The notes beneath the pieces are model-generated. The model worked only from the letters and a program-made list of their open reading frames with translations. It had not been told where the DNA came from and did no database searches. From the IMG/VR virus record IMGVR_UViG_3300020147_000012, positions 1-50,910 of that record: 50,910 bases of DNA; one strand, given 5' to 3'. Shown here in pieces: positions 3,243 to 42,520 of the stretch (position 1 is its first letter; every line of letters begins with the position of its first letter). A program made the translations under genes and the position numbers. This stretch comes from a virus (taxonomy: Duplodnaviria; Caudoviricetes).

Positions 3243-4883
3243 TTAATAACCTGTTACTCTGCCTTTGCGCTTGACCGTCGTGACGTTCTTGCGCTTGAAC
3301 TTGTCATAAGGAATCGCACGCCTGGCCGTGCCGTTTTCCAACCCAAGTGCCAGGTATTCCAAAGCCGAGCGATAGTGAGAGGTGTAGTCGTGCTTTGGCT
3401 TGTCAGACCTGACCTCTTCAAGACCGTGGCTTTTAACGCGAGGATAAGCGGCATTGATAAGGCAGAGGTCAAAATACTTAGTGCGGGGATTCTCATTGAG
3501 AAGTATCCCGTCCATAAGCAAGCGTTTGGTTGCGCTCTTGCGGACCTTAAATTCTTTCCAAGCCTCATTGAAGTTGATGATGATGCCGTGGTTCTTAAGC
3601 ACGTCCATTACAGATTCGTCTGACACCTGGTTCTGGAAGCGACCCGCAGGGTCGCCAAAATGTGTACCACGTTTCCAATACTTGTGGCTTTCGATTATTT
3701 CAAGTTCGTCTTTCGTATAGATATAGCCGTCACTCGGCACGATGCCGGTAACGAATGGGATGTAGAAGTCGATGTTCTTGCCGGTGTTCCGGTACACGTC
3801 GATGATCCTGAGCTTGCCGGTTCGATCCGGCTGCGCCCAGATGATGCCGGTGTCGTCGGTCTTGCCGAAGTCCCAGCCAACATAAAGCGGCATGTCAGCA
3901 TCATAAGGGAACCAGCCCTCAGTGACGTTGGCCTCATTCCATTCAGGGTAAACACGGCCCTCCTTGGACTTGCTGTAAGAGATGTCGAGTTCCTGGGCCA
4001 CTTCTTCTTCGGTGCGGCGAGCACACTCATAGTCGTACCAGAACTGATCTTTCAGCGGATGCTCCTTCCAATGGAGAGTCATCACGTCGATGCCCGAATC
4101 CCGAAGCATGGCGAAGTAGTTATAGCCATCAGGCGTAGAGTTGGCGATGCGGCAAGAGGTTGAGTCGCCGCAAGCTTCCCACGCATCTTTGGCGTAGTCC
4201 CAGAAACCCAACTCGTCGAAAAGGATAGCAGTCTTACGAGAACCGCGGCCGAAGGACGGGTTCATCGTGTCACCGGCAATAAGGTTGTTATTGGCTGGGT
4301 TAACCAGCTTAAGCTTAGTCCTGTGCTTGTCAGGATTGTACTTGGCAGGTAAAAGCCACTTCGGCAAATTATTGAGAGCGTAGTCGATCTTGCCAAACAG
4401 GGAGTCGTCGGTACGGTCGTCAACCAGCTTTTCCTTGTAGGAACCAACCAGGATGTTGACGCCATCGCGGAAGAGCCAGTACCAAATAGGAACCCAAACG
4501 AACACGAGCCACGAGATACCCATGTCTCGGGACTTCTCAAACAGGCCGTCGCGTGAACCGTCGATGTGCTCAATCAGCCACTTGATAGCCCGCTCCTGAT
4601 AGCCGAAGGTTATGAAAGGGAGATGGTGCGGGGCGTGCTCAGGACGCGGGTCGAAAGTCCAGGCAAAGTTATTGATGAAAAACAAACAGCCCTCAATAGG
4701 ATTGTCGGGTCGCTGGCACAAGTACCAGATATAGGAGCGAGCCTCCAAGCTACGGTTGGCGGCATCGTTCATCTGCAAACGCTGAATTAGCTTCTCCTGG
4801 TAATCAGGGGAGCGTAGATAGTCTTCGAATTGCTTCTTTCGACGTTCAGCTTCCAGCCGTTGCTGCTCTGCGGTAATTCCCAT
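3243..4883 (-). CDS. terL: Terminase large subunit
   Basis: Walker A variant KSRDMGISW, Walker B ILFDE, coupling motif NSTPDG, nuclease domain GWDFG..D..G, and C-terminal HDYTSHYRSALEY. Confidence 0.92.
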   Translation of the reverse strand: MGITAEQQRLEAERRKKQFEDYLRSPDYQEKLIQRLQMNDAANRSLEARSYIWYLCQRPDNPIEGCLFFINNFAWTFDPRPEHAPHHLPFITFGYQERAIKWLIEHIDGSRDGLFEKSRDMGISWLVFVWVPIWYWLFRDGVNILVGSYKEKLVDDRTDDSLFGKIDYALNNLPKWLLPAKYNPDKHRTKLKLVNPANNNLIAGDTMNPSFGRGSRKTAILFDELGFWDYAKDAWEACGDSTSCRIANSTPDGYNYFAMLRDSGIDVMTLHWKEHPLKDQFWYDYECARRTEEEVAQELDISYSKSKEGRVYPEWNEANVTEGWFPYDADMPLYVGWDFGKTDDTGIIWAQPDRTGKLRIIDVYRNTGKNIDFYIPFVTGIVPSDGYIYTKDELEIIESHKYWKRGTHFGDPAGRFQNQVSDESVMDVLKNHGIIINFNEAWKEFKVRKSATKRLLMDGILLNENPRTKYFDLCLINAAYPRVKSHGLEEVRSDKPKHDYTSHYRSALEYLALGLENGTARRAIPYDKFKRKNVTTVKRKGRVTGY

Positions 4884-4897
4884 CGTGACGGTAAAAT

Positions 4898-4971
4898 TGG
4901 TAGCGGGTCCATGATTCGAACATGGTCCTTCAGGTTATGAGCCTAACGAGGTGCCATTCCTCCAACCCGCC
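4898..4971 (-). tRNA. tRNA-Met (CAT), initiator-like body
   Basis: Acceptor GGCGGGT/ACCCGCT, anticodon loop CTCATAA, T loop TTCGAAT, encoded CCA. Confidence 0.9.
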
Positions 4972-4977
4972 AATAAT

Positions 4978-4988
4978 ATTATACCACA
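4978..4988 (-). promoter_or_regulatory. Extended -10 promoter for tRNA-Met/terL
   Basis: TGTGGTATAAT 6 nt upstream of the tRNA 5' end. Confidence 0.75.
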
Positions 4989-5045
4989 TTTTGTAATATA
5001 TTACAAGAGCTTGACATAACTCATGAATATAGCCATACTGATTTC

Positions 5046-5420
5046 ATGAAGAAATTTATCGTCACGTTGGCCTTGGCTGGTGTCATAGCTGTGCCGGTTG
5101 CGTCACATGCACAGACTCCATCGCAAGATCAGATTAGACAGCTTCAACAGCAGGTTGCTTTACTCGTAACTTTACTCAATAAGTTAATGGCTGCTCAAAA
5201 CGGAAACGTTCAGGCGACCACAACAACTACGGTAACTGTCAAATCCCAACCGACCGCTCCTGAGGACGAAGAACAGACAACTATCGAGATCAAGACAGAG
5301 GAAGCAAAGCCCGTCGTGATCGAAAAGGCCCCAGAACAAATCCGAAGGGAAGAGGCTCAAGCGTACCACGACAGAACTGGTCAGTGGCCAAAGGGTTGGA
5401 GCGGAGGTGTCCAGCCATAA
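5046..5420 (+). CDS. Secreted/surface protein with signal peptide (moron-like, opposite strand)
   Basis: Signal peptide MKKFIVTLALAGVIAVPVASHA, then a QIRQLQQQVALL coiled coil. It has its own promoter (TTGACA at 5011, CATACT at ~5034) and would be nearly leaderless. Confidence 0.8.
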   Translation: MKKFIVTLALAGVIAVPVASHAQTPSQDQIRQLQQQVALLVTLLNKLMAAQNGNVQATTTTTVTVKSQPTAPEDEEQTTIEIKTEEAKPVVIEKAPEQIRREEAQAYHDRTGQWPKGWSGGVQP

Positions 5421-5422
5421 TG

Positions 5423-5494
5423 TTCCAGGTCATGGGTTCGAACCACAATTAACAGATCCAAAGTCTGTTGTCCTACCGATTAGACGAACCTGGA
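5423..5494 (-). tRNA. tRNA-Gln (TTG)
   Basis: Acceptor TCCAGGT/ACCTGGA, anticodon arm ACAGA-CTTTGGA-TCTGT, T loop TTCGAAC. Confidence 0.9.
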
Positions 5495-5496
5495 AT

Positions 5497-5527
5497 AAGA
5501 AAGCCCCCAAGAGGGGGCTTTTTGTTT
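5497..5527. terminator. Bidirectional intrinsic terminator
   Basis: AAAGCCCCC-AAGA-GGGGGCTTT flanked by A and T runs. Confidence 0.75.
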
Positions 5528-5612
5528 ACTGGCAGCTATCGCACTGAGTACCCTCAGCAGGATCGCATACGCCCTCAACATTGCCCTCCTCTCGTGGTTC
5601 AATATCGCTCAT
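5526..5612 (-). CDS. 28-aa Cys-rich peptide ending CDPAEGTQCDSCQ
   Basis: Manual translation MSDIEPREEGNVEGVCDPAEGTQCDSCQ*, located between tRNA-Asn and the terminator. It is below the ORF-track cutoff. Confidence 0.65.
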   Translation of the reverse strand: MSDIEPREEGNVEGVCDPAEGTQCDSCQ

Positions 5613-5635
5613 GCTTTGAAAATTACCTGATAAGG

Positions 5636-5708
5636 CTGGCACGGCTGGATTCGAACCAGCGACCTATCCGTTAACAGCGGATTGCTACTACCACTGAGCT
5701 ACATGCCA
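5636..5708 (-). tRNA. tRNA-Asn (GTT)
   Basis: Acceptor TGGCATG/CGTGCCA, anticodon arm TCCG-CTGTTAA-CGGA, T loop TTCGAAT. Confidence 0.92.
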
Positions 5709-5767
5709 TTGTTTACTTATGTCTCGAAGATGTTAAGATGAGCTTAAGGTTCTTCGAGAGGGAATCG

Positions 5768-5792
5768 GGGATAGCAGCTTCGGCTGCTATTT
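5768..5792. terminator. Hairpin/terminator after the putative small terminase
   Basis: ATAGCAGC-TTCG-GCTGCTAT followed by TTC. Confidence 0.55.
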
Positions 5793-6365
5793 CTATTTCG
5801 TCCGCTCTTTGTCCACCTGGACTTTCTCACGCATGGTCATCAGAGCCTCAAAAGCGGCCTCTGGTGTCATCTCCTTGTCGATCTTGGCATGGACCGCAAT
5901 ATGCTCCGTAGCTTCGCCCTTGAGGATCTGAGCCTTGTCAAAAGCCACGCCAGCGATCACGGCCAAGTCTTTGAACGTAACCTGGTCAAGTTTCTTCTTG
6001 GACTTGCCGACACGATCAAGCTTCATGTCGATAAGCCTGAACGATTTGTCGCGGATCGAAAGGACGACGTTCTTGATGTCGCCGTCGCCTTCGCGGCGTT
6101 CAGCCACGCTGGCCCCTTCGGCTACAATCGTAGGCTTGTTGATGCGCTGATTCATAGAATCGCACACCATCTTCACAACGTCAGGAGAGACACCGTACTG
6201 CTCGGGGTTGTTCTTAACCGCAGCGTAGATCTTATAGACGGCAGTTCGGATTGATCGGGGATTGCTGTAAACCTTGTCGAAACCGTAATCTATGCCGACT
6301 TGCAGCATTGGCTTAAGGGAGAGTGCCTTAAAGATTTCGACTTGTTTCTCGGGACCGAATTTCAT
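5793..6365 (-). CDS. Putative terminase small subunit
   Basis: 190 aa, upstream of terL. The C-terminal DLAVIAGVAFDKAQILKGEATEHI resembles TerS-type helices. A TGTAGTATAAT promoter at 6373..6383 would give a leaderless mRNA. Confidence 0.6.
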   Translation of the reverse strand: MKFGPEKQVEIFKALSLKPMLQVGIDYGFDKVYSNPRSIRTAVYKIYAAVKNNPEQYGVSPDVVKMVCDSMNQRINKPTIVAEGASVAERREGDGDIKNVVLSIRDKSFRLIDMKLDRVGKSKKKLDQVTFKDLAVIAGVAFDKAQILKGEATEHIAVHAKIDKEMTPEAAFEALMTMREKVQVDKERTK

Positions 6366-6468
6366 TTACAACATTATACTACAGATTTAAGAAAAAATCA
6401 ATAGCAAAAAGACCCCAAAAGGGGTTGTTATACAAGGACAAAAAGGCCATCTTCATAAACAGAGAGAC

Positions 6469-6782
6469 TTATCCACAGGTTCTCCCTTTTTAGATGCCAA
6501 TTTTTCACTCTTCCACCAAACCAAGTATGGTATACTCATGAAGAGGTCAGGCACGCAAAAAACGTCCTAATCTTCCCATTCAGAGGCGGCCACAGAACCC
6601 CCTAGGTGAACACATCTTTGCAAGATGTACAGCCGAAGCGGACCGGCTATTAAGTCACTGGTATCTGTTCTCTGATGGGAAGGTTCGGGCGTTTATTGCT
6701 TTTGTTCCATCCACAGCTGATATGATTAGTATATCTTTTGTACATGTTTTGTACAACAAACGCTATATCGCTCTGTGGATAA
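6469..6782. promoter_or_regulatory. Two perfect DnaA boxes in inverted orientation
   Basis: TTATCCACA at 6469..6477 and TGTGGATAA at 6774..6782 in a non-coding region. Confidence 0.55.
6543..6706 (+). ncRNA. Putative ~160-nt structured RNA (long rod with branched head)
   Basis: Promoter TATGGTATACT at 6526..6536. Segment 6555..6585 pairs with 6670..6699, with G-U pairs on the + strand. Two inner hairpins and a 3' U-tract. Confidence 0.65.
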
Positions 6783-6815
6783 CCTCAACAGGTTTAAAAG
6801 GTGCAAATGAACTGA

Positions 6816-6891
6816 TGGGGCCGCTGGAAAGACTTGAACTCTCAACCCACGCTTTACAAAAGCGTCGCTCTACCAATTGAGCTACAGCGGC
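6816..6891 (-). tRNA. tRNA-Thr (TGT)
   Basis: Acceptor GCCGCTG/CAGCGGC, anticodon arm ACGCT-TTTGTAA-AGCGT, T loop TTCAAGT, encoded CCA. Confidence 0.93.
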
Positions 6892-7112
6892 ATCATCAAC
6901 TCACGTTTCATTTCGCGGTAGTCACGTCTGGAAATAATCTCTCGGCCGATTGCGCCGCCATATTCCCAGCCACTGACTTTCTTACCGTTCAACCGCTTAC
7001 TCCTCACAAGTCTATATGCCTTCTTCTTATGTTTTCGTTTCCAGTTCATTGCACCGTAGTACGACATAGTAGGCTGGCTAGTCCCAGGTGACGGGAGGCC
7101 CATTGTTTGCAT
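6882..7112 (-). CDS. Small basic hypothetical protein within the tRNA operon (start may be at ~7067)
   Basis: K/R-rich ORF on the tRNA strand; its stop overlaps the tRNA-Thr 5' end. Confidence 0.45.
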   Translation of the reverse strand: MQTMGLPSPGTSQPTMSYYGAMNWKRKHKKKAYRLVRSKRLNGKKVSGWEYGGAIGREIISRRDYREMKRELMMPL

Positions 7113-7217
7113 CGTACTGCCTTAGAGATTGACTGATAGACCCAGGTATTAACGGCATCTAGAATCCTCCCTGGGATTATCAACCAACCTCATTGCGTCC
7201 ACTTTCTCCCACTACAG

Positions 7218-7290
7218 CCAGTAGCATTGGAATCGAACCAACCCAGCAAGTTTTGGAGACTCGCTCGCCAGCCTTGGGACATGGCTACTG
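7218..7290 (-). tRNA. tRNA-Trp (CCA), atypical D arm
   Basis: Acceptor CAGTAGC/GCTACTG, anticodon arm GCGAGT-CTCCAAA-ACTTGC, T arm GTTGG-TTCGATT-CCAAT. Confidence 0.75.
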
Positions 7291-7293
7291 AAT

Positions 7294-7511
7294 AGGTGAT
7301 GGCAAGGATTTGCCGAGTTCTAATTTCTGACCTTCTTTCATGTCGTGGTATTTCAACCTCGGGTACTCGTAGTAGTCACCTTGCGGTCATAGCCAGGTTA
7401 ACGGCGGCTTACCAGTATGCGTAACCTATCTTACGAAGTTGGAACTTCCAACGTATCAGCTACACAGTAACCAGTGCTCGACGGGCAGACCTATACTGCC
7501 ATACATCACCT
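7294..7511 (-). ncRNA. tRNA-framed ~217-nt RNA with large insertions
   Basis: Acceptor-like GGTGATG/CATCACC, D-like hairpin GGCAG/CTGCC, T-like stem GCAAGG/CCTTGC whose loop is split by a 64-nt insert. Confidence 0.6.
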
Positions 7512-7512
7512 C

Positions 7513-7557
7513 TGACGGCCTTCAACTTGAGTTGAACGGGGATTGCTCCCGCCGTCA
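7513..7557 (-). ncRNA. 45-nt three-way-junction RNA element
   Basis: TGACGGC/GCCGTCA closes GGGA-GCAA-TCCC and TTCAAC-TCAA-GTTGAA. Confidence 0.55.
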
Positions 7558-7560
7558 TTA

Positions 7561-7618
7561 TGTCCGAGAGGGGACTTGAACCCCCGACGCAAGGCTCTAC
7601 CAACTGAGCTACTCAGAC
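7561..7618 (-). ncRNA. tRNA-like RNA lacking the anticodon arm
   Basis: GTCTGAG-TA-GCTC-AGTTGGTA-GAGC-CTTGCGTC-GGGGG-TTCAAGT-CCCCT-CTCGGAC-A. Confidence 0.8.
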
Positions 7619-7688
7619 AATCCTCCCCAGTCCTGTGGTCTGATCCACCGCTCCATATCAGAAGGAAGACTCCCAGGGATTACTAAGT

Positions 7689-7758
7689 ATTATACCACAA
7701 ACTGCATCACTTTTCAACAGTCTCCTGTGTTGTAATTGGGGACAAATTATGGTATAAT
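7689..7758. promoter_or_regulatory. Divergent extended -10 promoter pair driving the RNA cluster
   Basis: TGTGGTATAAT on the minus strand (7689..7699) and TATGGTATAAT on the plus strand (7748..7758). Confidence 0.75.
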
Positions 7759-7764
7759 AGGTGA

Positions 7765-8288
7765 GTTAGGAAAACAAAATACTGGGGGCTAGGAAGGCTA
7801 AGGCAAGAGTGCCTACCCCTGGATGCCACGAACTACTTGCCAGGTGTCTTACGCTGTGAACTGGGAAATGACACCATCGCTATTACCGCTTGCTACGAGA
7901 CTTCACACGGTAACAGGATTACTCTCCAAGGGCTTGAGATGGAGGAGAAGAAGTGAGGACAGGACAATCAGAGAAACAACTGAGCCAATTGTCCGGTAGA
8001 AACTTAACCTTCGTACAGGCTAGGTATCCACAACTGTACCTGAAAAATAAGGACAGAATGTGGAAAGGTACACCTGACCAAGCGAAGCGCGGGCAGCAAG
8101 GCTTTAGCCTTGTGAATCTATACCCAAGTCACCAATGTATCTAAACAGAAGCGAAAAAGGAATCGGGGATAGATTACAGTCTCTAGGCCATACAACCTAC
8201 CAAGAAACAAGAATCTGTGGCGCAGGACACATGATTACGGTAAAACATTACGCAAAAGCACCACCAGCCCCCACTAGGGGGTTTTCTT
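7765..8288 (+). ncRNA. Putative large (~520 nt) structured ncRNA
   Basis: Own promoter and terminator, paired ends, at least 8 helices, 2 candidate pseudoknots, and no credible ORF. Confidence 0.7.
8268..8288 (+). terminator. Intrinsic terminator
   Basis: CCCCC-ACTA-GGGGG followed by TTTTCTT. Confidence 0.65.
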
Positions 8289-8426
8289 ATACCCATTGGC
8301 CTAAAACGTAATACAGGAATAATAAAAATGGTGCAAAATTTTGGATGGGCATATGATTAGAATGGGCGCAGCGTTGGCCCGTGTCCCACCCCCTCGCAGG
8401 AATAAGGCTTTTTTAGGATTGTCTGT

Positions 8427-8454
8427 ATGTCTCACAACAGGTATTGTACGACAC
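8427..8454. other. dif-like 11-6-11 recombination site
   Basis: ATGTCTCACAA-CAGGTA-TTGTACGACAC, with imperfect inverted arms around a 6-bp spacer. Confidence 0.45.
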
Positions 8455-8860
8455 TAAACTAATATATGGCTATAAATAAGGGGTTTTTAGTGTTTGGGTG
8501 TGTCGCAAAAGCAAACAAATAATGGTATATATCCCTTTTTGTACGACTGTGTGCGGTGCGATGCAGCTACCTTAGCCCCATCCACACACTAAGTAGGCGG
8601 TTCCATTCACACCATGTGGTAAATAACCCTTACTTTTTATAGTGCATACCATCGCTAATATGAGGCTCTATATAAGGCTAGATAACCTCACGCACAAACG
8701 GCCCTATATGTACTTGCTATCCATTGGGCATTATTTGACATACTGGCTTATTCTGTACTGTAATGTTGTACTACGCTTGACTTCCTTTGCCCTTATAGCT
8801 TATAGTAGCAAGTATTAAGGGAATAGGTCGTTTTATAAACAATTAATTGATACCAACTAT

Positions 8861-8971
8861 ATGCCAACTATCGCACACCGCATATACTACGTATTCATTG
8901 GGCTGATCCTCGGATTGCTTGCCTCACATGAATTGGTAGTTATGCCGATGCTTGAAGCCCTTACTAAGTAA
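8861..8971 (+). CDS. Small membrane peptide (36 aa)
   Basis: Manual translation MPTIAHRIYYVFIGLILGLLASHELVVMPMLEALTK; first gene of the early arm. Confidence 0.55.
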   Translation: MPTIAHRIYYVFIGLILGLLASHELVVMPMLEALTK

Positions 8972-8978
8972 TAAGAAT

Positions 8979-9158
8979 ATGTTAATGAAGTTCTACGTTA
9001 AGCAGGTCTACGGTAAGCCTAGAAACTACCTGGTAGACCCGAAGCAAGCCGAAGCCTTTACCAAACTAACAGGCAGAGCGACCCTTTCAGCCGATGACTT
9101 CCGCATCCTAGAGGTATTTGGAGTCAAATTTGAACAGGTCAACGAGCCTATTAAATAA
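8979..9158 (+). CDS. Hypothetical early protein
   Basis: ATG at 8979 (MLMKFYVKQVYGK...), tightly packed with its neighbours. Confidence 0.7.
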   Translation: MLMKFYVKQVYGKPRNYLVDPKQAEAFTKLTGRATLSADDFRILEVFGVKFEQVNEPIK

Positions 9159-9160
9159 TA

Positions 9161-9301
9161 ATGATCTTAAAGCAATATTATTCTATTGATGGTGGTGTCA
9201 ATAATCTATGTATCTATACGGTATGTAATGAGCGATACCAAACCATTAGCACACACAAGACCGAGAAAGCAGCAATGAGAGCATTAAAGCTAATTAAATA
9301 G
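9161..9301 (+). CDS. Hypothetical protein (46 aa)
   Basis: Manual translation MILKQYYSIDGG...AAMRALKLIK; fills the gap between neighbouring genes. Confidence 0.55.
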   Translation: MILKQYYSIDGGVNNLCIYTVCNERYQTISTHKTEKAAMRALKLIK

Positions 9302-9304
9302 CAT

Positions 9305-9397
9305 ATGAGGTACTTAATCCTACTAATAAGCCTTATAGCCATCACACAGTTAAGTAATCCATTGATGGGAGCTAGATTTGTTTTGTTAGATAAATAA
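9305..9397 (+). CDS. Small hydrophobic peptide (30 aa)
   Basis: MRYLILLISLIAITQLSNPLMGARFVLLDK; 2-3 nt gaps to its neighbours. Confidence 0.45.
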   Translation: MRYLILLISLIAITQLSNPLMGARFVLLDK

Positions 9398-9399
9398 AC

Positions 9400-9510
9400 A
9401 TGACTAATAAGCCAATATCCAAAGAGGCACAAGACATATTGAGGCCAGAATGGGAGAAAATGCAGGACTTCATAAAAGAAACAGATCAAGAGATATGCGG
9501 GACTGAGTAG
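9400..9510 (+). CDS. Hypothetical protein (36 aa)
   Basis: MTNKPISKEAQDILRPEWEKMQDFIKETDQEICGTE; tight packing. Confidence 0.5.
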   Translation: MTNKPISKEAQDILRPEWEKMQDFIKETDQEICGTE

Positions 9511-9695
9511 AGTATTGTTTATCCTTAGTGTGGCTTGGTTCGACCGTTGCGTAAAGCAATGGTAGCAGGGCGAAGCCATGCGATAGGGCAAGCAATTAGG
9601 CGAACCCTCCGCTAACAGCTTGCGATCGTAACTTATGCTAGTTATGGTAGCGAAGCGAGTTAGTTGGTGGTCATTGAAAACTAAATATAACGATT

Positions 9696-9941
9696 ATGAC
9701 CAAACACAAGACCATCCAGCGTAAAAGCTGGACTAAAAAGGATATTGCAGCCGTACTTGATCTATGGGAAACCAAAACAAAGGCTGAAATAGCCGAGCAG
9801 TTGGACGTTAAAATGTGGCAATTAACCTATTTGATTAAGGAAATAGAGAAAGCTGGCTATAAGATCCCTAAAAAGAAACAGCATCACCAGACGCAAATTC
9901 TCATAAAGGAAGTATTAAAAGCCCGCAAGCTAATCAAATAG
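9696..9941 (+). CDS. Small HTH-like DNA-binding protein
   Basis: WTKKDI..VLDLW...TKAEIAEQLDV pattern; basic. Confidence 0.65.
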   Translation: MTKHKTIQRKSWTKKDIAAVLDLWETKTKAEIAEQLDVKMWQLTYLIKEIEKAGYKIPKKKQHHQTQILIKEVLKARKLIK

Positions 9942-9945
9942 AGCC

Positions 9946-10380
9946 ATGACCAAAGAAGACTATTCTATCCTTGTTAGCTGCATTGAGTTAGCTAAACGAG
10001 ATGACGGAACTGAGTTCTACCGCGTCAAAGATGGCACACCGGACCATGTTGCTAAAATAGTGTCTGATGTCGTCTTTAAAGCGGACGAAGATATACATAG
10101 CTGGGATTTGTCTTATGAGATTGCTAACGATGCGCTTAATGCCTTGTACGATGTCGAACTGGATAATTTATCTGAGTTTGATATCTATGAGCAAGACAGT
10201 GAGCACGCTAGCATCTGGACAGCTGCCCGCCTTGAATATCTGACCATGTGGAACCAGGACGAAATAGCGGACAAAGTTAGAGATTATGACTGTGATATCG
10301 CTACGGCAGCAGCTATGTGGTATGAAGAGCAGGTTAATTACATGGTCGAAGCCTTTAAGAGCGCAATTCTTGAAGCCTAA
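9946..10380 (+). CDS. Ocr-like acidic protein (putative DNA mimic/anti-restriction)
   Basis: About 34 D/E versus about 11 K/R in 144 aa (hand count), helical, early position; the motif spacing recalls T7 gp0.3. Confidence 0.55.
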   Translation: MTKEDYSILVSCIELAKRDDGTEFYRVKDGTPDHVAKIVSDVVFKADEDIHSWDLSYEIANDALNALYDVELDNLSEFDIYEQDSEHASIWTAARLEYLTMWNQDEIADKVRDYDCDIATAAAMWYEEQVNYMVEAFKSAILEA

Positions 10381-10382
10381 CC

Positions 10383-10598
10383 ATGAACCACGACCTAAAA
10401 ATTAAGTCATTACATGACGCAATGCTCGAATGCTCTTGCGGTTGGAGCCTTATCTATACCGGCGCAATGACAAAAGCGGAGGCCAAGAGAGAACATGACC
10501 GCCACCGCTATCAGGAATTTTGCACCGAATGGAGGAAGGCCCATTCCATCAGCAAACCGCCAAGCTTTACCAGTTGGAAGTCTGACCATAAAGCCTAA
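10383..10598 (+). CDS. Hypothetical protein with CxCG...H motif
   Basis: 71 aa ORF in the early operon. Confidence 0.65.
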   Translation: MNHDLKIKSLHDAMLECSCGWSLIYTGAMTKAEAKREHDRHRYQEFCTEWRKAHSISKPPSFTSWKSDHKA

Positions 10599-10610
10599 GA
10601 CTAACTAGCC

Positions 10611-10799
10611 ATGAAAACTATATATCTTGCAGGGTCTTATAAGCTTGTTTTGGAAGATAACGAGGGCAAAACATTTACTTTCCTAGATATCAAGTTATCA
10701 TCTAAACAGGCTAGGGAAGTGTTTAAATCTAAGATGTTTGCTGGTGTACAAATACGAGAATTAAGTTATAATGGCGATACATGGACTACAGCAAGCTAA
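10611..10799 (+). CDS. Hypothetical protein
   Basis: 62 aa ORF in the early operon. Confidence 0.6.
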   Translation: MKTIYLAGSYKLVLEDNEGKTFTFLDIKLSSKQAREVFKSKMFAGVQIRELSYNGDTWTTAS

Positions 10800-10954
10800 C
10801 CCTTGGAGAGCTAATCAGCCACAGTAACGAAACGATCCGGCGCAATGCTATGTCTATTCTTAAGCAGTTGCAAAAGATCGAATACGACAAGGGTATCGAC
10901 GAAGCCAAAGCCGCCTACGACAAAGAAATCGAAGAATTGAAAAAAGGTAAATAA
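10781..10954 (+). CDS. Hypothetical protein (57 aa)
   Basis: Manual translation MDYSKLTLGELISHSNETIRRNAMSILKQLQK...; followed by a terminator. Confidence 0.6.
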   Translation: MDYSKLTLGELISHSNETIRRNAMSILKQLQKIEYDKGIDEAKAAYDKEIEELKKGK

Positions 10955-10997
10955 TCGCTTTTCTACCCCTTGAGGCCCTAAAAACCCTTGAGGCATC

Positions 10998-11039
10998 AAA
11001 AAGCCACCTAAATACTAGCTATAGGTGGTTTTTTGTTTT
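10998..11039 (+). terminator. Intrinsic terminator ending the first early operon
   Basis: AAAAGCCACCTA...TAGGTGGTTTTTTGTTTT; a second hairpin with U-tract follows at ~11079..11102. Confidence 0.7.
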
Positions 11040-11264
11040 CCCGAGAAAGGGGAAAGTGACCATTTAGTAGCCTACGCAGAACCCCGACGAGGGGGCTTTT
11101 TTATATCTGACGCAGAGTTCCGAGAGCGTAAATCTTCATGTAGCCTTCATGTAAACTCAGGTATTATTGTTTTGTTCTATTGCCAAAATTGGCCTTTCGT
11201 GGTATATAGTAATCTTGGGATCTGATATCCTCTTTGGGGCAATTGTGCTATAATATTTTACGAC

Positions 11265-20547: not shown

Positions 20548-20634
20548 TTTTTATCCCCAATTACGTTTTGATTTGTGTTACAATTTGTGGTATAATATGT
20601 GCATTAGAAAGGGTTAAGAGTTAACAAAAAAGAC

Positions 20635-23227: not shown

Positions 23228-23629
23228 ATGTTACGCGCATTGCTGCTTGCCTTGCTCGTTGGGACTACTACCCCTACCGCTGCACCCGTAGCCATTAAGG
23301 ATGAGCCTATCGAGCCACCGCAAACAGTAGAAAACCAAATAGTGGAATACGCCCGAAAGGAAGGTGTCGATCCGCAGTTGCCAATGAAGATTGCATATTG
23401 CGAAAGCACCCATAGGCAGTTCGACGAAGACGGTTCTGTGCTTCGTGGGAAGGCTAACCCGCAGGACGTAGGGGTATTTCAAATCAACGAATACTATCAC
23501 TTAGCAGATAGTAAGAAGCTTGGGTACGACATTCATACCCAGGAGGGGAACATTGCATACGCCATGCAGCTCTACAAGAAACAAGGGTCACGCCCTTGGA
23601 ACTGGAGCAAGCCATGCTGGGGCAAATAG
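23228..23629 (+). CDS. Lytic transglycosylase / lysozyme-like protein with signal peptide
   Basis: IAYCES, GVFQIN, NIAYAMQLY and PW..S..CW motifs; hydrophobic N-terminus. Confidence 0.85.
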   Translation: MLRALLLALLVGTTTPTAAPVAIKDEPIEPPQTVENQIVEYARKEGVDPQLPMKIAYCESTHRQFDEDGSVLRGKANPQDVGVFQINEYYHLADSKKLGYDIHTQEGNIAYAMQLYKKQGSRPWNWSKPCWGK

Positions 23630-23710
23630 GCCTTGTGCCGATACACGATTGAAGGCTAGTCGTCTGTCGGGAACAGGTCTTTACCTGATCTTTGAAAAGG
23701 AGAAAATACC

Positions 23711-23914
23711 GTGCAAATTAAGTGTTCTTCGTGCGATACCGTACTTGGAAACTTCGATGATGTAGCCCTGCTACCTAAGTTCTGCAAGAAGTGCAAAACC
23801 AGAGAATTGGAGGGGAGTTCACATGAATTTTTCGGCTTCGGGCAAATGCCTGTTTTGCCGCCATCACCCGCAACACGGATACACCAGCTACAGTTTCCTT
23901 TGGGGACTGATTAA
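23711..23914 (+). CDS. Small Zn-ribbon protein
   Basis: CSSC...CKKC. Confidence 0.45.
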   Translation: MQIKCSSCDTVLGNFDDVALLPKFCKKCKTRELEGSSHEFFGFGQMPVLPPSPATRIHQLQFPLGTD

Positions 23915-24062
23915 GTTTCATATTTGCAGCTACTGCAACTATTTAAGGAGTGGACGCTATGGTTAGATTCCGGTGTGACCAGTGGGTTGAAGATCATAGC
24001 ATCTACTGTTCTGGATGCGATAGAAGGTTCTTCAAAGACTATGTCAATTTGGAGGAAGGATT

Positions 24063-27928: not shown

Positions 27929-27962
27929 ATTGGGGATAACTTGCTTGAGTGTATTGCAAAAA

Positions 27963-28004
27963 TGTGGTATAATTATAGCAGGTCAGTGTAGATATTATAC
28001 CACA
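27963..28004. promoter_or_regulatory. Face-to-face extended -10 promoters (groEL vs lysis)
   Basis: TGTGGTATAAT at 27963..27973 (+) and at 27994..28004 (-). Confidence 0.7.
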
Positions 28005-28024
28005 GAATTACCGTAATTGCAAGA

Positions 28025-34634: not shown

Positions 34635-35819
34635 TTATTTAAAGATGCCTTTCGGCTTATTGCCGGTGAAGAATTGAGCAACGGCCTTGCCTGGTGCTTC
34701 GGCAACCTTGCCAAGTTGTTTTGCCACATTAACAGCAGGGACACCGCTCTTCTTAGGTGCTGGCTGAGAAGCCAAGATTGAAGCGTAAGCAGTTCGTGCC
34801 TTTTCTTCAGAGTAAGATTTAGGAGAGCTACCAACTTCAGACAAGAACTGGTTGATGTTCTTGCCGGACTTAACAGCATTAGCCGCCATAGAGTTTAGCT
34901 CTGACGCTTCTTCCTGATCCTGGCGCATGATCTCGCCATAGACCAAAGCCGCATCTTCAGAGCCATCCAAACCAGCCAAGAAGCCGGTATCACCGTTACG
35001 ATAAGCAGAGGCCAAAGCAGCAGCCGTAATAGAGTCAATGCGGTTAACTTTATCTCCCTGCAATGCCTTAGCAGCCTGAGCCTTGGAGTTAGCAATTTCA
35101 GCCCTGATCTTCTGTAATTGGAGCTGTCGTTCTTCTGATGCGTAAGGAGCGGCCCGAGCAACAATAGTTTCGATAGTGTCTCCTTCTTTAGTAGGCACAC
35201 CAAATTCCATAGCAATCTGAGAGATTGCCTTCCTTTCTTCGAACGATTGAGCCTTAGCCAAACGCTCCTCAGTCTTCATAGCCAATCCGAATTGGTCACG
35301 AGACAAACGCTGGTTTTCCCGTTGGACAGCCAAGCTGGAAAGGGAAAGGAGGTTTTCAAAGACACGTTGCTGTGCCTGGGTTTTGTATTCGATAGCTTTG
35401 AGCTGGAGTTCAGAGATCTTGCCAGCAGCTTCTGCTTCGCCAGCCAAGATCAGTTCTTGTTTGCGCTGAGCCAGGTCGTTGAGGTTCTTGTCCACGGTCC
35501 CGACTATTTCACGGAGGACACCCATGTTCGTAGCGAACCCAGCACGACCTTCCAAGTTGCCGGTAATAGCCCTCTGTCCTTCTTCCTGGGCATAACCGAT
35601 CTCACGGCCAAACTGAGATTCTATACGCTGAGCACTGGCTTGTTGGCCAGCTTGAACACCCTTAATAGCCTCGCCAATTTTGCTTTCGAGTTCAGTGTCT
35701 TGAGAGGAGATGACTTCCGATTGGGAAAGTAGACGACTTTGGAGAGTATCTAGGAACTTATCGGACTGTGCGCCAGTGTTCGGGTTAGTGATTGTTTTCT
35801 GTTTCGGAGTAGTAGCCAT
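34635..35819 (-). CDS. Internal virion/ejection protein (helical)
   Basis: 394 aa, Q/A/E-rich coiled coil, upstream of the large virion protein; promoter at 35832..35842. Confidence 0.6.
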   Translation of the reverse strand: MATTPKQKTITNPNTGAQSDKFLDTLQSRLLSQSEVISSQDTELESKIGEAIKGVQAGQQASAQRIESQFGREIGYAQEEGQRAITGNLEGRAGFATNMGVLREIVGTVDKNLNDLAQRKQELILAGEAEAAGKISELQLKAIEYKTQAQQRVFENLLSLSSLAVQRENQRLSRDQFGLAMKTEERLAKAQSFEERKAISQIAMEFGVPTKEGDTIETIVARAAPYASEERQLQLQKIRAEIANSKAQAAKALQGDKVNRIDSITAAALASAYRNGDTGFLAGLDGSEDAALVYGEIMRQDQEEASELNSMAANAVKSGKNINQFLSEVGSSPKSYSEEKARTAYASILASQPAPKKSGVPAVNVAKQLGKVAEAPGKAVAQFFTGNKPKGIFK

Positions 35820-35860
35820 TCTGACTTATATATTATACCATAAATTTGTCATACTTGCAA

Positions 35861-37093
35861 CTAGCGGCGGTAGCGATAACGCCGGTTGAAGTTAATGCTT
35901 CGAACCTTAAAGTTCTTTTCTTCGGGGGTCTTGGAAGTAGGGAAGATCTTACGTGCTCGTTCAAGCTGTTTGTTGGCCTCGTCTTCTTGGACCAGGGCAT
36001 CGTTGTAGAGCCGAAGAGGTGATTTGAAGAGCAAACCAGCTGCCTTGTGAGCTATCGCGTACTTGTACTGATCGTACTTACCAGAGAAGAACGGGACATC
36101 AGTAGTAGCCGAGAAGGCGTAAATGTCAGTGCCGGAATTGTTCTTGCCAACCACCCAAGAGACATAGCGGAAGGTAAGCTTCTCAGGCCGGACAACGCGA
36201 AGATAGTCCAAACGGAAGTCGGTATCGTCGCCCTGGGAAACTGTGTAGTTAAAATCGAAACGATAGTAGGTGATATCGCCGGCGTCAGGAGTGCCGGTAG
36301 GAGTAGCATCAGCCCAATTGACCTTGATGGTATTGTCGCCATTGGCAAAGGCCGAACCGTTTATATCCGTCGTAACGGTAGCGGACCAATAGTTTGAGGA
36401 ATCGGTTCCCCAATAGAAGGTGATCGAGCTGAAGTTGGTAACATTAGGAATGTAGGCTTCGAATACCCAGCTAGCCAGGTCTTCGAGATCGGACAAGTCG
36501 GCCGAGTTGGCATCCTCGTTGTAGATAGTAGCCCTGTTGTTTCCTGACTGAGAAACGTCTACGTCAAAGTTCAGAGAACCGTTACCGCTCGTATATTCAG
36601 CCGTATCAATAGTGACGTTAGTAGCGTCAGAGTTGGTGGTATCAGCTTGCCATGTCCCGCCGCCGTCGGTCAAAGAATCGAACTCAGAGATGACCTGAGC
36701 CTGGTATTGAGGGTTGTAGATGATCCCTAAGTACCAGTCGTCATCCTGGTATTCGATTGCGTAGGAAGGTTCCTGGGAGCCTTCAGCGATCTCGGAAGCA
36801 ATCTCCCTGCCGTCCTTACGGGTGAAAGGGGGATAGTTCTTGCCCACGGCCCGCCTTAGTTCGGTAGGTTCCTGGATGTCAGGCACAAGAGCCGTGATCT
36901 TGTAATAGTTCACGGTATCAATAAAGTCGATCTCTTGCGTGCTTACGTTATGATCGTTACCTAGCTCTTCATTGAGCCAGACAACGGCTTCGGTCAAAGC
37001 TTGGAATCGTTCTGCTTGGGAGATGCGGTCGGTTGAGGAGTCACCAATGTTCGTATCGAGGTTGGTGATGAGGTTTGCGAGAGTGACAGCCAT
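35861..37093 (-). CDS. Head-tail adaptor (tail tubular A-like) with inserted beta domain
   Basis: Helical N- and C-termini typical of adaptors flank an acidic beta-rich insert; promoter at 37107..37117. Confidence 0.55.
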   Translation of the reverse strand: MAVTLANLITNLDTNIGDSSTDRISQAERFQALTEAVVWLNEELGNDHNVSTQEIDFIDTVNYYKITALVPDIQEPTELRRAVGKNYPPFTRKDGREIASEIAEGSQEPSYAIEYQDDDWYLGIIYNPQYQAQVISEFDSLTDGGGTWQADTTNSDATNVTIDTAEYTSGNGSLNFDVDVSQSGNNRATIYNEDANSADLSDLEDLASWVFEAYIPNVTNFSSITFYWGTDSSNYWSATVTTDINGSAFANGDNTIKVNWADATPTGTPDAGDITYYRFDFNYTVSQGDDTDFRLDYLRVVRPEKLTFRYVSWVVGKNNSGTDIYAFSATTDVPFFSGKYDQYKYAIAHKAAGLLFKSPLRLYNDALVQEDEANKQLERARKIFPTSKTPEEKNFKVRSINFNRRYRYRR

Positions 37094-37126
37094 ATTGCGT
37101 TTCTATATTATACCACAGATTTTAGT

Positions 37127-40202: not shown

Positions 40203-40874
40203 TTAAAAGTTTGCGCCCATAAACATAGCGTTGCCCGCAGCAGGGGCAGCACCAGCTGCCGCCAGTTCGAACAAGATTGCTCCATCCGTTACGGCAGAGT
40301 TCCAGGTGGCATTAAAAGTATGTGACCCAGCAGGGCTGATTGGCCCGTCGCTATCGCCAAGATGGATACCGTTTGAAGTATTTGTAACCCTGACCGTAAG
40401 ACCTGAACCAGCTGTGATCGTTGCGCCGCTGGCATCACGGATTCCGACAATCGCCCAACTATTGTCTACAGTGGTGGTTATAGATCCTGAATAGCTGGTA
40501 TTCGAATTGGTATCCGTCGAAGTGGTGCTGGTAGGAATAGGAGCCGATTGATTAACGCCGGAATATGACACAAACCCTGAAGCAATGACCCCTGACACGC
40601 CACGACTGATAACGACGTTGTTCGAACCGCTGGCTGGGTTTACCAGATAGTACACATCGAAAGAACGATCCGTAGAAACCCTATGGGTAGTTAGTTTTGT
40701 CATCGCTACTCCTGCATACGTGATACCGCTTATTCCTGTCGTTGCTGCCGTATCGCCAAGAACCCACACATACATGAAACGGTTGCTCCCCGAACCCACG
40801 GTAAACGGGGTCGTCTGCGAGGTGACAGGGTTGCTTACATGAGGGCCTGAGCTGTTGTCGGGGGCAATAGCCAT
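40203..40874 (-). CDS. Virion beta-sandwich protein (tail-associated)
   Basis: 223 aa, S/T/G-rich; similar to the insert in the nozzle gene. Confidence 0.65.
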   Translation of the reverse strand: MAIAPDNSSGPHVSNPVTSQTTPFTVGSGSNRFMYVWVLGDTAATTGISGITYAGVAMTKLTTHRVSTDRSFDVYYLVNPASGSNNVVISRGVSGVIASGFVSYSGVNQSAPIPTSTTSTDTNSNTSYSGSITTTVDNSWAIVGIRDASGATITAGSGLTVRVTNTSNGIHLGDSDGPISPAGSHTFNATWNSAVTDGAILFELAAAGAAPAAGNAMFMGANF

Positions 40875-42478: not shown

Positions 42479-42520
42479 TCGTTAACTAATTATACCACAA
42501 ATTATACAATATTTCAATAG

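What the first reader, a model, noticed from the sequence alone, without database searches (positions are those of the whole stretch)
7765..8288. ~520-nt ornate, pseudoknotted ncRNA with its own promoter and terminator
Seen: the ends pair (TGGGGGCT 7783-7790 with AGCCCCCA 8266-8273; TAGGAAAAC with GTTTTCTTA). A long-range helix joins AAGGCTAAGGC 7794-7804 and GCTTTAGCCTT 8101-8111. Hairpins GGTGTC/GACACC (7843-7875) and TTACCG/CGGTAA (7883-7913) have loops that can kiss through TGTGAA/TTCACA. Further stems are CTCTCCA/TGGAGGAG, GGACAAT/ATTGTCC and AATCTAT.CCC/GGG.ATAGATT. The loop TCCACA of GTACAG/CTGTAC can pair with TGTGGA at 8059. The closing stem competes with the terminator hairpin, which could act as a switch. 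I do not recognise it as GOLLD, ROOL, OLE, RNase P, tmRNA or a group I/II intron. Inference: a new large phage ncRNA class or a distant member of a known one.
Basis: partly seen in the sequence, partly recalled or inferred. Interest (0 to 1): 0.85.

Follow-up and report, generated by a model that had tools for sequence, protein, structure and literature searches.

The report
Orphan 525-nt phage non-coding transcript
A complete uncultured phage genome carries, beside its tRNA genes, a roughly 525-base unit with its own promoter and terminator and no credible protein gene; it is probably a structured RNA, but no relative was found to test the fold.

Summary
Window 7765-8290 (+) is a discrete transcription unit. 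Its promoter (7730-7758) is one of 16 copies of a phage-wide motif, TTG-N17-TGTGGTATAAT (0.85 expected). Its terminator (8266-8290) belongs to a three-locus terminator family. The predicted 5' and 3' ends pair with each other (-29.2 kcal/mol); apart from terminator copies, 5 of 14,538 background windows do as well.

The three larger ORFs (58, 63, 58 aa) score like spurious ORFs. No credible protein relatives were found. No Rfam family matches.

The ornate, pseudoknotted fold is unproven. No homologue turned up in 69 related loci, 4 complete related genomes, or peptide-pattern scans of viral and prokaryotic collections, so covariation cannot be tested. The MFE z-score (-3.6) lies in the tail of the genome background but is not unique. 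Ensemble diversity is ordinary.

Best reading: an accessory stand-alone ncRNA carried with a divergent tRNA operon, comparable in setting to ROOL and GOLLD but not a member of either. Confidence 0.5.

The parts
7730..7758 (+). Promoter of the RNA: TTGTAA, 17-nt spacer, extended -10 TATGGTATAAT. The predicted start is about 7765.
   Evidence: 10 of 12, TG present; one of 16 genome-wide matches to TTG-N17-TGNTATAAT against 0.85 expected. TGTGGTATAAT with 1 mismatch.
7765..8290 (+). Predicted transcript of about 525 nt. It is non-coding and purine-rich (A 176, G 129, C 120, T 101).
   Evidence: The bounds come from the promoter and terminator. No Rfam family matches. The three larger ORFs score as spurious.
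7767..7790 (+). 5' arm of the closing stem: P1a 7767-7775 and P1b 7783-7790. It also reads as a degenerate inverted copy of the terminator family.
   Evidence: pair probability 0.98-0.99; inverted repeat I1: 24 nt, 75% complementary.
7931..8064 (+). Best-defined interior domain in the thermodynamic model. It consists of two adjacent stem-loops, with most helices at pair probability 0.9-1.0.
   Evidence: It served as covariance model R1, which matched only itself.
8266..8290 (+). Intrinsic terminator: AGCCCCC ACTA GGGGGTT followed by TTCTTAT. Its left arm and T-tail form the 3' arm of the closing stem (8266-8273 and 8281-8289).
   Evidence: terminator family at 3 loci, 4 matches against 0.03 expected; 88% identical over 25 nt to 5519-5495..
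7689..7717 (-). Divergent promoter of the tRNA operon (context). It lies back to back with the RNA's promoter.
   Evidence: 11 of 12, TG present; 0 mismatches. tRNAs lie downstream on the minus strand.
8308..8354 (.). Conserved backbone element marking the right edge of the inserted cargo. It begins about 18 nt after the terminator tail.
   Evidence: It is present in 7 loci and normally lies 100-650 nt from the TerS start.

Best explanation
The region is a self-contained, non-coding transcription unit.

Steps shown or predicted from sequence:
- Host RNA polymerase would start at about 7765, from a promoter of the phage's own consensus class.
- It would stop at the intrinsic terminator ending at about 8290, giving an RNA of about 525 nt.

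Steps inferred:
- After release, the RNA can refold so that its first and last roughly 25 nt pair (P1a and P1b). This closes the molecule and buries both ends, which should make it long-lived.
- The unit is accessory cargo. Together with a divergently transcribed tRNA operon, it sits in a variable slot between the small-terminase gene and a conserved control element. Relatives carry other promoter-terminator cassettes in that slot.
- The RNA acts in trans as a folded molecule during infection. The most likely targets are the host translation or tRNA-handling machinery, or a host factor for which it serves as a decoy. This is by analogy with other stable phage RNAs that travel with tRNA genes (ROOL, GOLLD, T4 RNAC and RNAD).
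For: - The promoter belongs to a 16-member phage family (0.85 expected) and the terminator to a 3-locus family (0.03 expected).
- The back-to-back partner promoter drives tRNA genes, that is, stable RNAs.
- The pairing of the ends starts 2 nt after the predicted start and ends at the terminator tail. It has pair probability 0.98-0.99 and -29.2 kcal/mol. Only 5 of 14,538 unrelated background windows equal it.
- The plus strand is purine-rich (58% A+G).
- Codon scores of the 58-, 63- and 58-aa ORFs are -0.23, -0.10 and -0.15. Real genes score 0.256 +/- 0.10 and 116 spurious ORFs score -0.17 +/- 0.15.
- The 58-aa ORF at 8135 runs through the terminator.
- No ORF sits at the leaderless position used by several phage genes.
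- The GGAGGAG before the GTG at 7953 is not a ribosome-binding signal in this phage: 1 of 31 genes has GGAG or GAGG upstream.
- No protein relatives were found.
- Relatives hold different promoter-terminator cassettes at the same place. The conserved backbone element resumes just after the terminator.
- The same tRNA operon holds a non-tRNA hairpin RNA with 4 compensatory pairs against L064. This phage group therefore does carry small structured RNAs with its tRNAs.
- ROOL and GOLLD are phage or prophage RNAs 'often near tRNA islands' (passages read).
Against: - No homologue was found, so there is no covariation and no evidence of selection on the fold.
- Folding statistics are only moderately unusual. 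The z of -3.57 compares with a background minimum of -3.47 among 18 windows, and ensemble diversity equals that of shuffles.
- The minus strand folds as well or better.
- The closing stem may be a by-product of a degenerate inverted terminator copy at the 5' end rather than a selected feature (sequence comparison).
- The terminator state is only 4.3 kcal/mol above the closed state, which also fits a switch.
- A 39-aa TTG ORF (7837-7956) has a codon score of 0.152, above 99% of spurious ORFs.
- Expression has not been observed.
Confidence: 0.5

Rival explanations
1. Transcribed relic without a function of its own. The stretch between a promoter and a terminator would be decayed cargo, such as an eroded gene or an eroded piece of tRNA array. 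In that case the end pairing exists only because the 5' end is a degenerate inverted copy of the common terminator.
For: - It is an orphan sequence in 69 related loci and 4 complete related genomes.
- The interior fold is not better defined than shuffles.
- The neighbouring tRNA operon also holds about 1 kb of unexplained sequence, with few tRNAs compared with relatives that carry 20-24.
- The 5' arm resembles the reverse complement of the terminator family, with one arm replaced.
Against: - The promoter and terminator are intact consensus copies.
- The MFE z is -3.4 to -3.6, with 0 of 100 shuffles folding as well.
- There is no trace of similarity to tRNAs or to any protein family.
- Compact 51-kb phage genomes rarely keep 0.5 kb of strongly transcribed junk (general knowledge).
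Confidence: 0.2
2. Long cis-acting leader with an attenuator. The 5' segment UGGGGGCU (7783-7790) would act as an anti-terminator for the hairpin at 8266-8283. Some signal that remodels the 480-nt body would then decide whether transcription reads through into the early genes from about 8860 to the terminator at 11082-11104.
For: - AGCCCCCA is shared by the closing stem and the terminator, and the two states differ by 4.3 kcal/mol.
- In the nascent RNA the 5' G-run is predicted to pair locally with 7813-7822. This gives a classic 1:2 / 3:4 against 1:3 layout.
- No consensus-class plus-strand promoter lies between 7758 and 11244.
Against: - P1a pairs the extreme 5' end with the terminator's U-tail, which only makes sense after release.
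- Relatives lack this RNA yet keep the conserved element and early genes, so the early genes have their own control.
- A sigma-70-like site (TTGACT-18-TATAGT) lies at 8777-8806, just before the first plausible gene.
- About 570 nt separate the terminator from that gene.
Confidence: 0.12
3. A small-protein 'moron'. The unit would encode a short peptide, most plausibly the 39-aa TTG ORF 7837-7956. The RNA structure would then be incidental.
For: - The codon score of the 39-aa ORF is 0.152, exceeded by only 1% of 116 spurious ORFs.
- Relatives carry small-protein cassettes at the same site: a 56-aa ORF in L008, a hydrophobic ORF in L042 and an ORF in L048.
- This phage does not need a Shine-Dalgarno sequence.
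Against: - The ORF has a TTG start about 70 nt from the transcript start, inside predicted helices.
- Seven ORFs were scored, so one at the 1% level is weak evidence.
- No relative was found by tblastn in 69 loci, Pfam or PHROGs.
- The ORF would use only 120 of 525 nt.
- The three larger ORFs score as spurious.
- The 63-aa ORF's only database matches are long repeat proteins at 16 of 38 identities per repeat.
Confidence: 0.1
4. The functional strand is the minus strand: an RNA or long leader upstream of the tRNA operon.
For: - The minus strand folds to -171.3 kcal/mol, with z -4.05 and -5.6.
- The tRNA genes are on the minus strand.
Against: - There is no consensus promoter on the minus strand to the right of the region. 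The best candidate is TGTCGTACAAT at 8453-8443, with 2 mismatches.
- The hairpin lacks a U-tail in that orientation.
- The tRNA operon has its own perfect promoter downstream of the region.
- The minus strand is pyrimidine-rich.
Confidence: 0.05

Closest known systems
ROOL RNA (rumen-originating, ornate, large)
   Same: It is a phage- or prophage-encoded, non-coding RNA with no known protein partner, 'often near tRNA islands' (passages of bioRxiv 10.1101/2024.12.08.627333). Its size of roughly 500-600 nt is recalled, not checked.
   Different: There is no match to the Rfam model even at E <= 10. ROOL's structure rests on covariation across many members and on a cryo-EM nanocage. Here there is one sequence and no tested structure.
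GOLLD RNA
   Same: It is a phage or prophage RNA near tRNA islands with unknown function (passages).
   Different: GOLLD members often exceed 800 nt and share a conserved 3' domain (passages). No Rfam match was found here.
Phage T4 RNAC and RNAD
   Same: They are stable phage RNAs of unknown function (passages of PMC9697503). Their location in the T4 tRNA gene cluster is recalled, not checked.
   Different: They are much shorter, about 120-140 nt (recalled), and are processed from the tRNA transcript (recalled). This RNA is divergently transcribed with its own promoter and terminator. No sequence comparison was made.
Terminator/anti-terminator leaders (attenuators, riboswitch expression platforms)
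   Same: There is mutually exclusive pairing of a 5' segment or a 3' segment with the left arm of an intrinsic terminator.
   Different: The competing 5' segment lies 480 nt upstream. No known aptamer is present. The U-tail itself is paired in the closed form. No gene follows within about 570 nt.

Membership tests
ROOL / GOLLD / OLE (Rfam covariance models) | Match to the family's covariance model | tested here: not met
   cmscan against Rfam 15 found nothing at gathering score. At E <= 10, 4500-9000 and 7740-8310 gave only Zeta-pan (18.3 bits against a gathering score of 56.7), SNORA38 (13.6 bits) and NRON (13.1 bits). That these families are in Rfam is stated in the passages.
ROOL / GOLLD | Encoded in a phage or prophage, near a tRNA island | tested here: met
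   The window is a complete virus record. tRNA genes lie at 4898-7290, with a tRNA-like element at 7561-7618. The two promoters are back to back.
ROOL / GOLLD | Conserved multi-helix structure supported by covariation; homo-oligomeric cage | not testable with these tools
   No homologue was found. No RNA 3D or oligomer tool was available.
tmRNA | tRNA-like domain (acceptor stem plus T-arm) and a tag reading frame | tested here: not met
   ARAGORN reports no tmRNA in the window. There is no Rfam tmRNA match, although the same tools do find a tmRNA in relative L002.
RNase P RNA, group I and group II introns, known ribozymes and riboswitches | Match to the Rfam model | tested here: not met
Transcription attenuator / riboswitch-type leader | Alternative anti-terminator pairing | tested here: met
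   7783-7790 and 8277-8283 compete for 8266-8273. The two states fold to -158.9 and -154.6 kcal/mol.
Transcription attenuator / riboswitch-type leader | Controls a downstream gene that lacks its own promoter | tested here: inconclusive
   No consensus-class plus-strand promoter lies at 7758-11244. However, a sigma-70-like site lies at 8777-8806. The conserved element at 8308-8354 precedes the early genes in relatives that lack the RNA.
MITE-like mobile element | Terminal inverted repeats | tested here: met
   The arms 7767-7790 and 8266-8289 are 24 nt long and 75% complementary.
MITE-like mobile element | Multiple copies; target-site duplication | tested here: not met
   There is a single copy in the phage and none in the relatives. 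No clear duplication flanks the arms. The host genome could not be searched.
CsrB/RsmZ-type protein sponge | Many GGA motifs, in hairpin loops | tested here: not met
   GGA occurs 14 times against 12.9 +/- 2.5 in dinucleotide shuffles (p 0.40). AGGA occurs 9 times against 4.3 (p 0.025). Several of these lie in predicted stems.

The most novel reading that the evidence does not exclude
This would be the first seen member of a new class of large, end-closed, structured phage RNA. It would be unrelated in sequence and fold to ROOL and GOLLD, but would fill the same niche beside phage tRNA genes and act in trans as an RNA-only particle or decoy. The terminator/closing-stem competition would serve as a built-in 'terminate, then lock' folding step.
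Probability: 0.3. Interest if true: 0.7.

Novelty: new variant of a known kind. Interest (0 to 1): 0.45.

Why it matters
Large structured RNAs that travel with phage tRNA genes (ROOL, GOLLD) are among the least understood bacterial and phage RNAs. A third, unrelated example in the same genomic setting would suggest that this niche repeatedly recruits big RNAs. It would also give another molecule to test for RNA-only assemblies or for action on translation.

The unit is small and has clean predicted ends, so it can be made in vitro and probed directly.

The limitation is that this is a single sequence from an uncultured phage of unknown host. Its structure and function cannot be supported by comparison at present, and it may be a relic.

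Tried and rejected
Homologue searches that found nothing:
- blastn ('distant' mode) of 7700-8320 against 50,697 GenBank phage records.
- nhmmer of the RNA against 29 loci (E <= 10) and 69 loci (E <= 100), with 0 hits.
- blastn (word size 7) of 6400-9950 against the 69 loci, with no hit inside 7765-8290.
- BLAST of the RNA in 4 complete related virus records. Only 12-22-nt chance matches came back, best E 0.07. One 59%-complete record gave 0 hits. Five records were not held and so were not searched.
- Back-translated peptide-pattern scans with the three tiling ORFs. In viral contigs, 29, 128 and 15 stretches matched a pattern and 0 were confirmed. With two of the ORFs in genome contigs, 365 and 600 stretches matched and 0 were confirmed.
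- A single-sequence covariance model of the core (R1, 138 positions) over 64 sources (702,166 bases). It matched only itself at 177.3 bits; the next best were 17.6 bits (E 0.13) and 16.4 bits (E 0.27). It matched 0 of 5 records.
- A conserved 776-nt block between L058 and L060 turned out to be a protein gene.
- Gaps in relatives' tRNA arrays hold ORFs or are short.

Protein searches:
- The 63-aa ORF had no word-sharing candidate.
- phmmer over 1.84 billion representatives gave 4 hits. All are 736-1146-aa repeat proteins matched in 4-6 stretches. I take their repeat to be CUB-like from memory; this was not tested.
- BLASTP gives 16 of 38 identities per repeat.
- Pfam finds no family in the ORF at E <= 1. 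I treat the phmmer hits as a summed chance resemblance.
- Pfam gave only a sub-threshold YuA_Gp49 hit (15.6 bits against a cut-off of 27) for the ORF that crosses the terminator.
- PHROGs gave 0 families for 7 ORFs.

Other checks:
- No antisense target was found in the phage; the longest exact match elsewhere is 14 nt.
- No RT, RNA ligase or other obvious RNA partner appeared among 30 larger proteins scanned.
- A tRNA-duplex test timed out and was dropped.

Sequencing runs:
- One run holds the stretch. It may be the source of this DNA, and no RNA holder is listed.
- Laying that run's contigs showed one contig across 6400-9000, with no variant letters and no diverged copy.
- Neither result bears on expression.

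Literature:
- Two full-text searches for new large phage RNAs listed nothing matching this RNA. I saw listings only, except for the passages read. Supplements are closed and were not seen.

Closed or unavailable:
- The host could not be identified. The best cultured-phage terminase match is 27-35% identical, so host genomes could not be searched.

Full report
**What the window is.** The window is a complete 50,910-bp virus record.
- It encodes a large terminase, a portal-like protein, a primase/helicase, a GroEL and tail proteins.
- It also encodes an AAA ATPase, an RNase H-fold protein and a peptidoglycan-binding protein.
- Its terminase has no close cultured relative; the best match is 27-35% identical.
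- It has 29 viral and 40 metagenomic relatives at 51-73% identity.

**The observation.**
- The repeat finder independently reports four inverted repeats: the terminal pair (7767-7790 with 8266-8289, 24 nt, 75% complementary), the long-range pair (7794-7804 with 8101-8111), 8115-8130 with 8160-8175, and 7959-7968 with 7988-7997.

**The transcription unit is real by the phage's own standards.**
- The generic scan finds TTGTAA-17-TATAAT with an upstream TG at 7730-7758. It also finds a back-to-back minus-strand promoter at 7717-7689.
- Searching TTG-N17-TGNTATAAT with up to 1 mismatch gives 16 matches in the genome, against 0.85 +/- 0.87 in shuffles.
- Nearly all copies carry TGTGGTATAAT and point towards genes. 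They sit in front of the portal, TerL/tRNA-Met, TerS, GroEL and tail genes.
- The RNA's promoter and the tRNA promoter are two of the 16.
- The terminator AGCCCCC-ACTA-GGGGGTT plus TTCTTAT matches CCCCCN4GGGGGYTTTCTTAT. That pattern occurs at 5495-5517 (-), 8268-8290 (+) and 11082-11104 (+), giving 4 matches at 3 loci against 0.03 expected.
- The predicted RNA therefore runs from about 7765 to about 8290.

**Coding capacity.**
- Three ORFs of 58, 63 and 58 aa tile the unit.
- On a codon log-odds score trained on 19 long genes they score -0.23, -0.10 and -0.15. In-frame gene chunks score 0.256 +/- 0.10. A set of 116 spurious ORFs inside genes scores -0.17 +/- 0.15.
- The third ORF needs to read through the terminator.
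- The GGAGGAG before the GTG at 7953 looks like a ribosome-binding site, but only 1 of 31 genes in this phage has GGAG or GAGG upstream. Several genes start 8-14 nt after the -10 box, that is, they are leaderless. GGAGGAG is therefore more likely one strand of a helix.
- No ORF starts at the leaderless position after the promoter: GTG AGT TAG.
- None of the ORFs has a relative. Searched were the 69 loci, the 5.8-billion-protein word index (63-aa ORF), Pfam, PHROGs, and pattern scans of viral and prokaryotic contigs.
- The exhaustive phmmer search gave four long repeat proteins, with the score summed over 4-6 repeats. Identity is 16 of 38 per repeat. I regard this as chance.
- One caveat remains. 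A 39-aa TTG ORF (7837-7956) scores 0.152, above 99% of spurious ORFs. It is one of seven ORFs scored.

**Known RNA families.**
- Rfam 15 gives only tRNAs in the window at gathering score.
- With E <= 10 and lax filters, nothing meaningful falls in the region: Zeta-pan 18.3 bits against a gathering score of 56.7, SNORA38 13.6 bits and NRON 13.1 bits.
- ARAGORN finds no tmRNA.
- The same tools find a tmRNA in relative L002, so they work on this phage group.

**Is the structure more than chance?**

The end closure is.
- The first and last 30 nt form a -29.2 kcal/mol duplex, with pair probabilities of 0.98-0.99 in the ensemble.
- Among 14,538 background 30-mers, 16 do as well. Eleven of those are the terminator or its sister terminators, and 5 (three loci) are unrelated.
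- The pairing begins 2 nt after the predicted start and ends in the terminator tail.

The interior is less convincing.
- The MFE is -158.9 kcal/mol, z -3.57, with 0 of 100 shuffles as good.
- Eighteen other 526-nt windows of the genome have mean z -0.44, sd 1.45 and minimum -3.47.
- Ensemble diversity is 115, against 119 +/- 28 for shuffles.
- The minus strand folds at least as well.

- Enforcing the long-range helix costs 1.4 kcal/mol.
- Enforcing the two hairpins with 'kissing' loops costs 1.4 kcal/mol.
- Enforcing GTACAG/CTGTAC costs 12.5 kcal/mol.
- TCCACA/TGTGGA is an ordinary helix in the MFE (P 0.90).
- By my arithmetic, the 6-nt loop-loop complementarity has roughly a 5% chance of arising between loops of 21 and 19 nt.

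**Strand.**
- The plus strand has the consensus promoter and a U-tailed terminator, and is 58% purine.
- The minus strand has no consensus promoter to the right; the best candidate has 2 mismatches.

**Context and relatives.**
- A roughly 47-nt element, GTAATACA...CAAAATTTTGGATGGGyATAT, is conserved in 7 loci. It normally lies 100-650 nt from the TerS start.
- In this phage it lies 1.9 kb from TerS and begins just after the RNA's terminator.
- The tRNA operon and the RNA unit therefore form inserted cargo between TerS and the backbone element.
- Relatives carry other promoter-to-terminator cassettes there: small-protein ORFs in L008, L042 and L048, and a 395-nt ORF-free unit in L041.
- None resembles this RNA by nhmmer, blastn or the core covariance model.
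- Four complete related genomes lack it.
- The RNA is therefore an orphan within everything I could search.

**Mechanism.**
- *Shown or predicted from sequence:* the promoter, the terminator, mutually exclusive use of 8266-8273, and two states at -158.9 (closed) and -154.6 kcal/mol (terminator hairpin plus a local 5' hairpin).
- *Inferred:* during synthesis the 5' G-run is held locally, so the terminator forms and releases the RNA. The RNA then relaxes into the closed form with both ends buried, and accumulates.
- *Function:* by analogy only, it acts in trans alongside the phage tRNAs. ROOL and GOLLD are phage RNAs often near tRNA islands (passages). T4 RNAC and RNAD are stable RNAs of unknown function (passages).
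- *Alternative view of the closing stem:* the 5' arm reads like a degenerate inverted copy of the terminator family, so the closure could be a by-product.
- The rivals are weighed in their own sections: transcribed relic, attenuator, small peptide and minus-strand RNA.

**Verdict.** The region is a genuine, well-bounded and probably non-coding phage transcript that matches no known family. The 'ornate pseudoknotted new class' reading remains unproven because no second sequence exists to test it. Interest is moderate.

Noticed in passing
window 7561-7618 (-): A 58-nt tRNA-like gene with an acceptor stem, D-arm and T-arm but no anticodon arm; only 8 nt link the D and T arms. Rfam tRNA scores it 43.4 bits, and ARAGORN does not call it. 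It is the first element after the tRNA-operon promoter.
   Followed up: partly
window about 7058-7118 (-) and L064:348-423: A small non-tRNA hairpin RNA inside the tRNA arrays of two phages, 83% identical. The loops are invariant, and 4 of 8 outer-stem pairs are changed on both sides with pairing kept. Only these two copies occur among the fetched loci. It overlaps a 76-aa ORF (6882-7112) that is probably spurious.
   Followed up: partly
whole window; for example 2829-2857, 4978-5006, 6373-6401, 20568-20596, 27945-28022, 35832-35860, 37107-37135, 42489-42517: A phage-wide promoter family, TTG-N17-TGTGGTATAAT, with 16 copies. Several genes (TerS, 34635-35819, 35861-37093, 40874-42478) start 8-14 nt after the -10 box, implying leaderless mRNAs. 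Only 1 of 31 genes has a GGAG or GAGG upstream. Relatives share the motif.
   Followed up: partly
window 8308-8354; also L020, L016, L042, L049, L036, L043: A conserved element of about 47 nt (GTAATACA ... CAAAATTTTGGATGGGyATAT), followed by a C-rich stretch. It is single-copy in the window and sits between the packaging and early arms. It could be a special promoter, an origin or a packaging site.
   Followed up: partly
window 6405-7682 (-): The tRNA operon runs from its promoter at 7717-7689 to the terminator at 6425-6412. It holds only tRNA-Trp, tRNA-Thr and the truncated tRNA-like gene in about 1.28 kb. Roughly 1 kb is unexplained. Relatives have dense arrays of 20-24 tRNAs.
   Followed up: no
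L002:4263-4576: A related phage carries a tmRNA gene inside its 24-gene tRNA array (ARAGORN; Rfam 79.7 bits).
   Followed up: no
L041 (the same contig as L009), 395 nt downstream of a TATGGTATAAT promoter in the TerS-upstream region: A promoter-to-terminator unit without an ORF and with a long 5' hairpin. It may be another, unrelated phage ncRNA in the same variable slot.
   Followed up: no
window 23401-23926 (+): The folding z-score is -3.47 with 20 shuffles, the lowest of 18 background windows. It overlaps the 133-aa ORF at 23228-23629 and the sequence downstream of it.
   Followed up: no
window 8459-8481 and 8655-8677; 8401-8416 and 8475-8490: Short direct repeats (23 nt at 83% identity; 16 nt at 88% identity) lie in the ORF-poor 8290-8860 stretch. 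AATATATGGCTATAAATAAGG (8461-8481) is also present exactly in L014 and L047.
   Followed up: no
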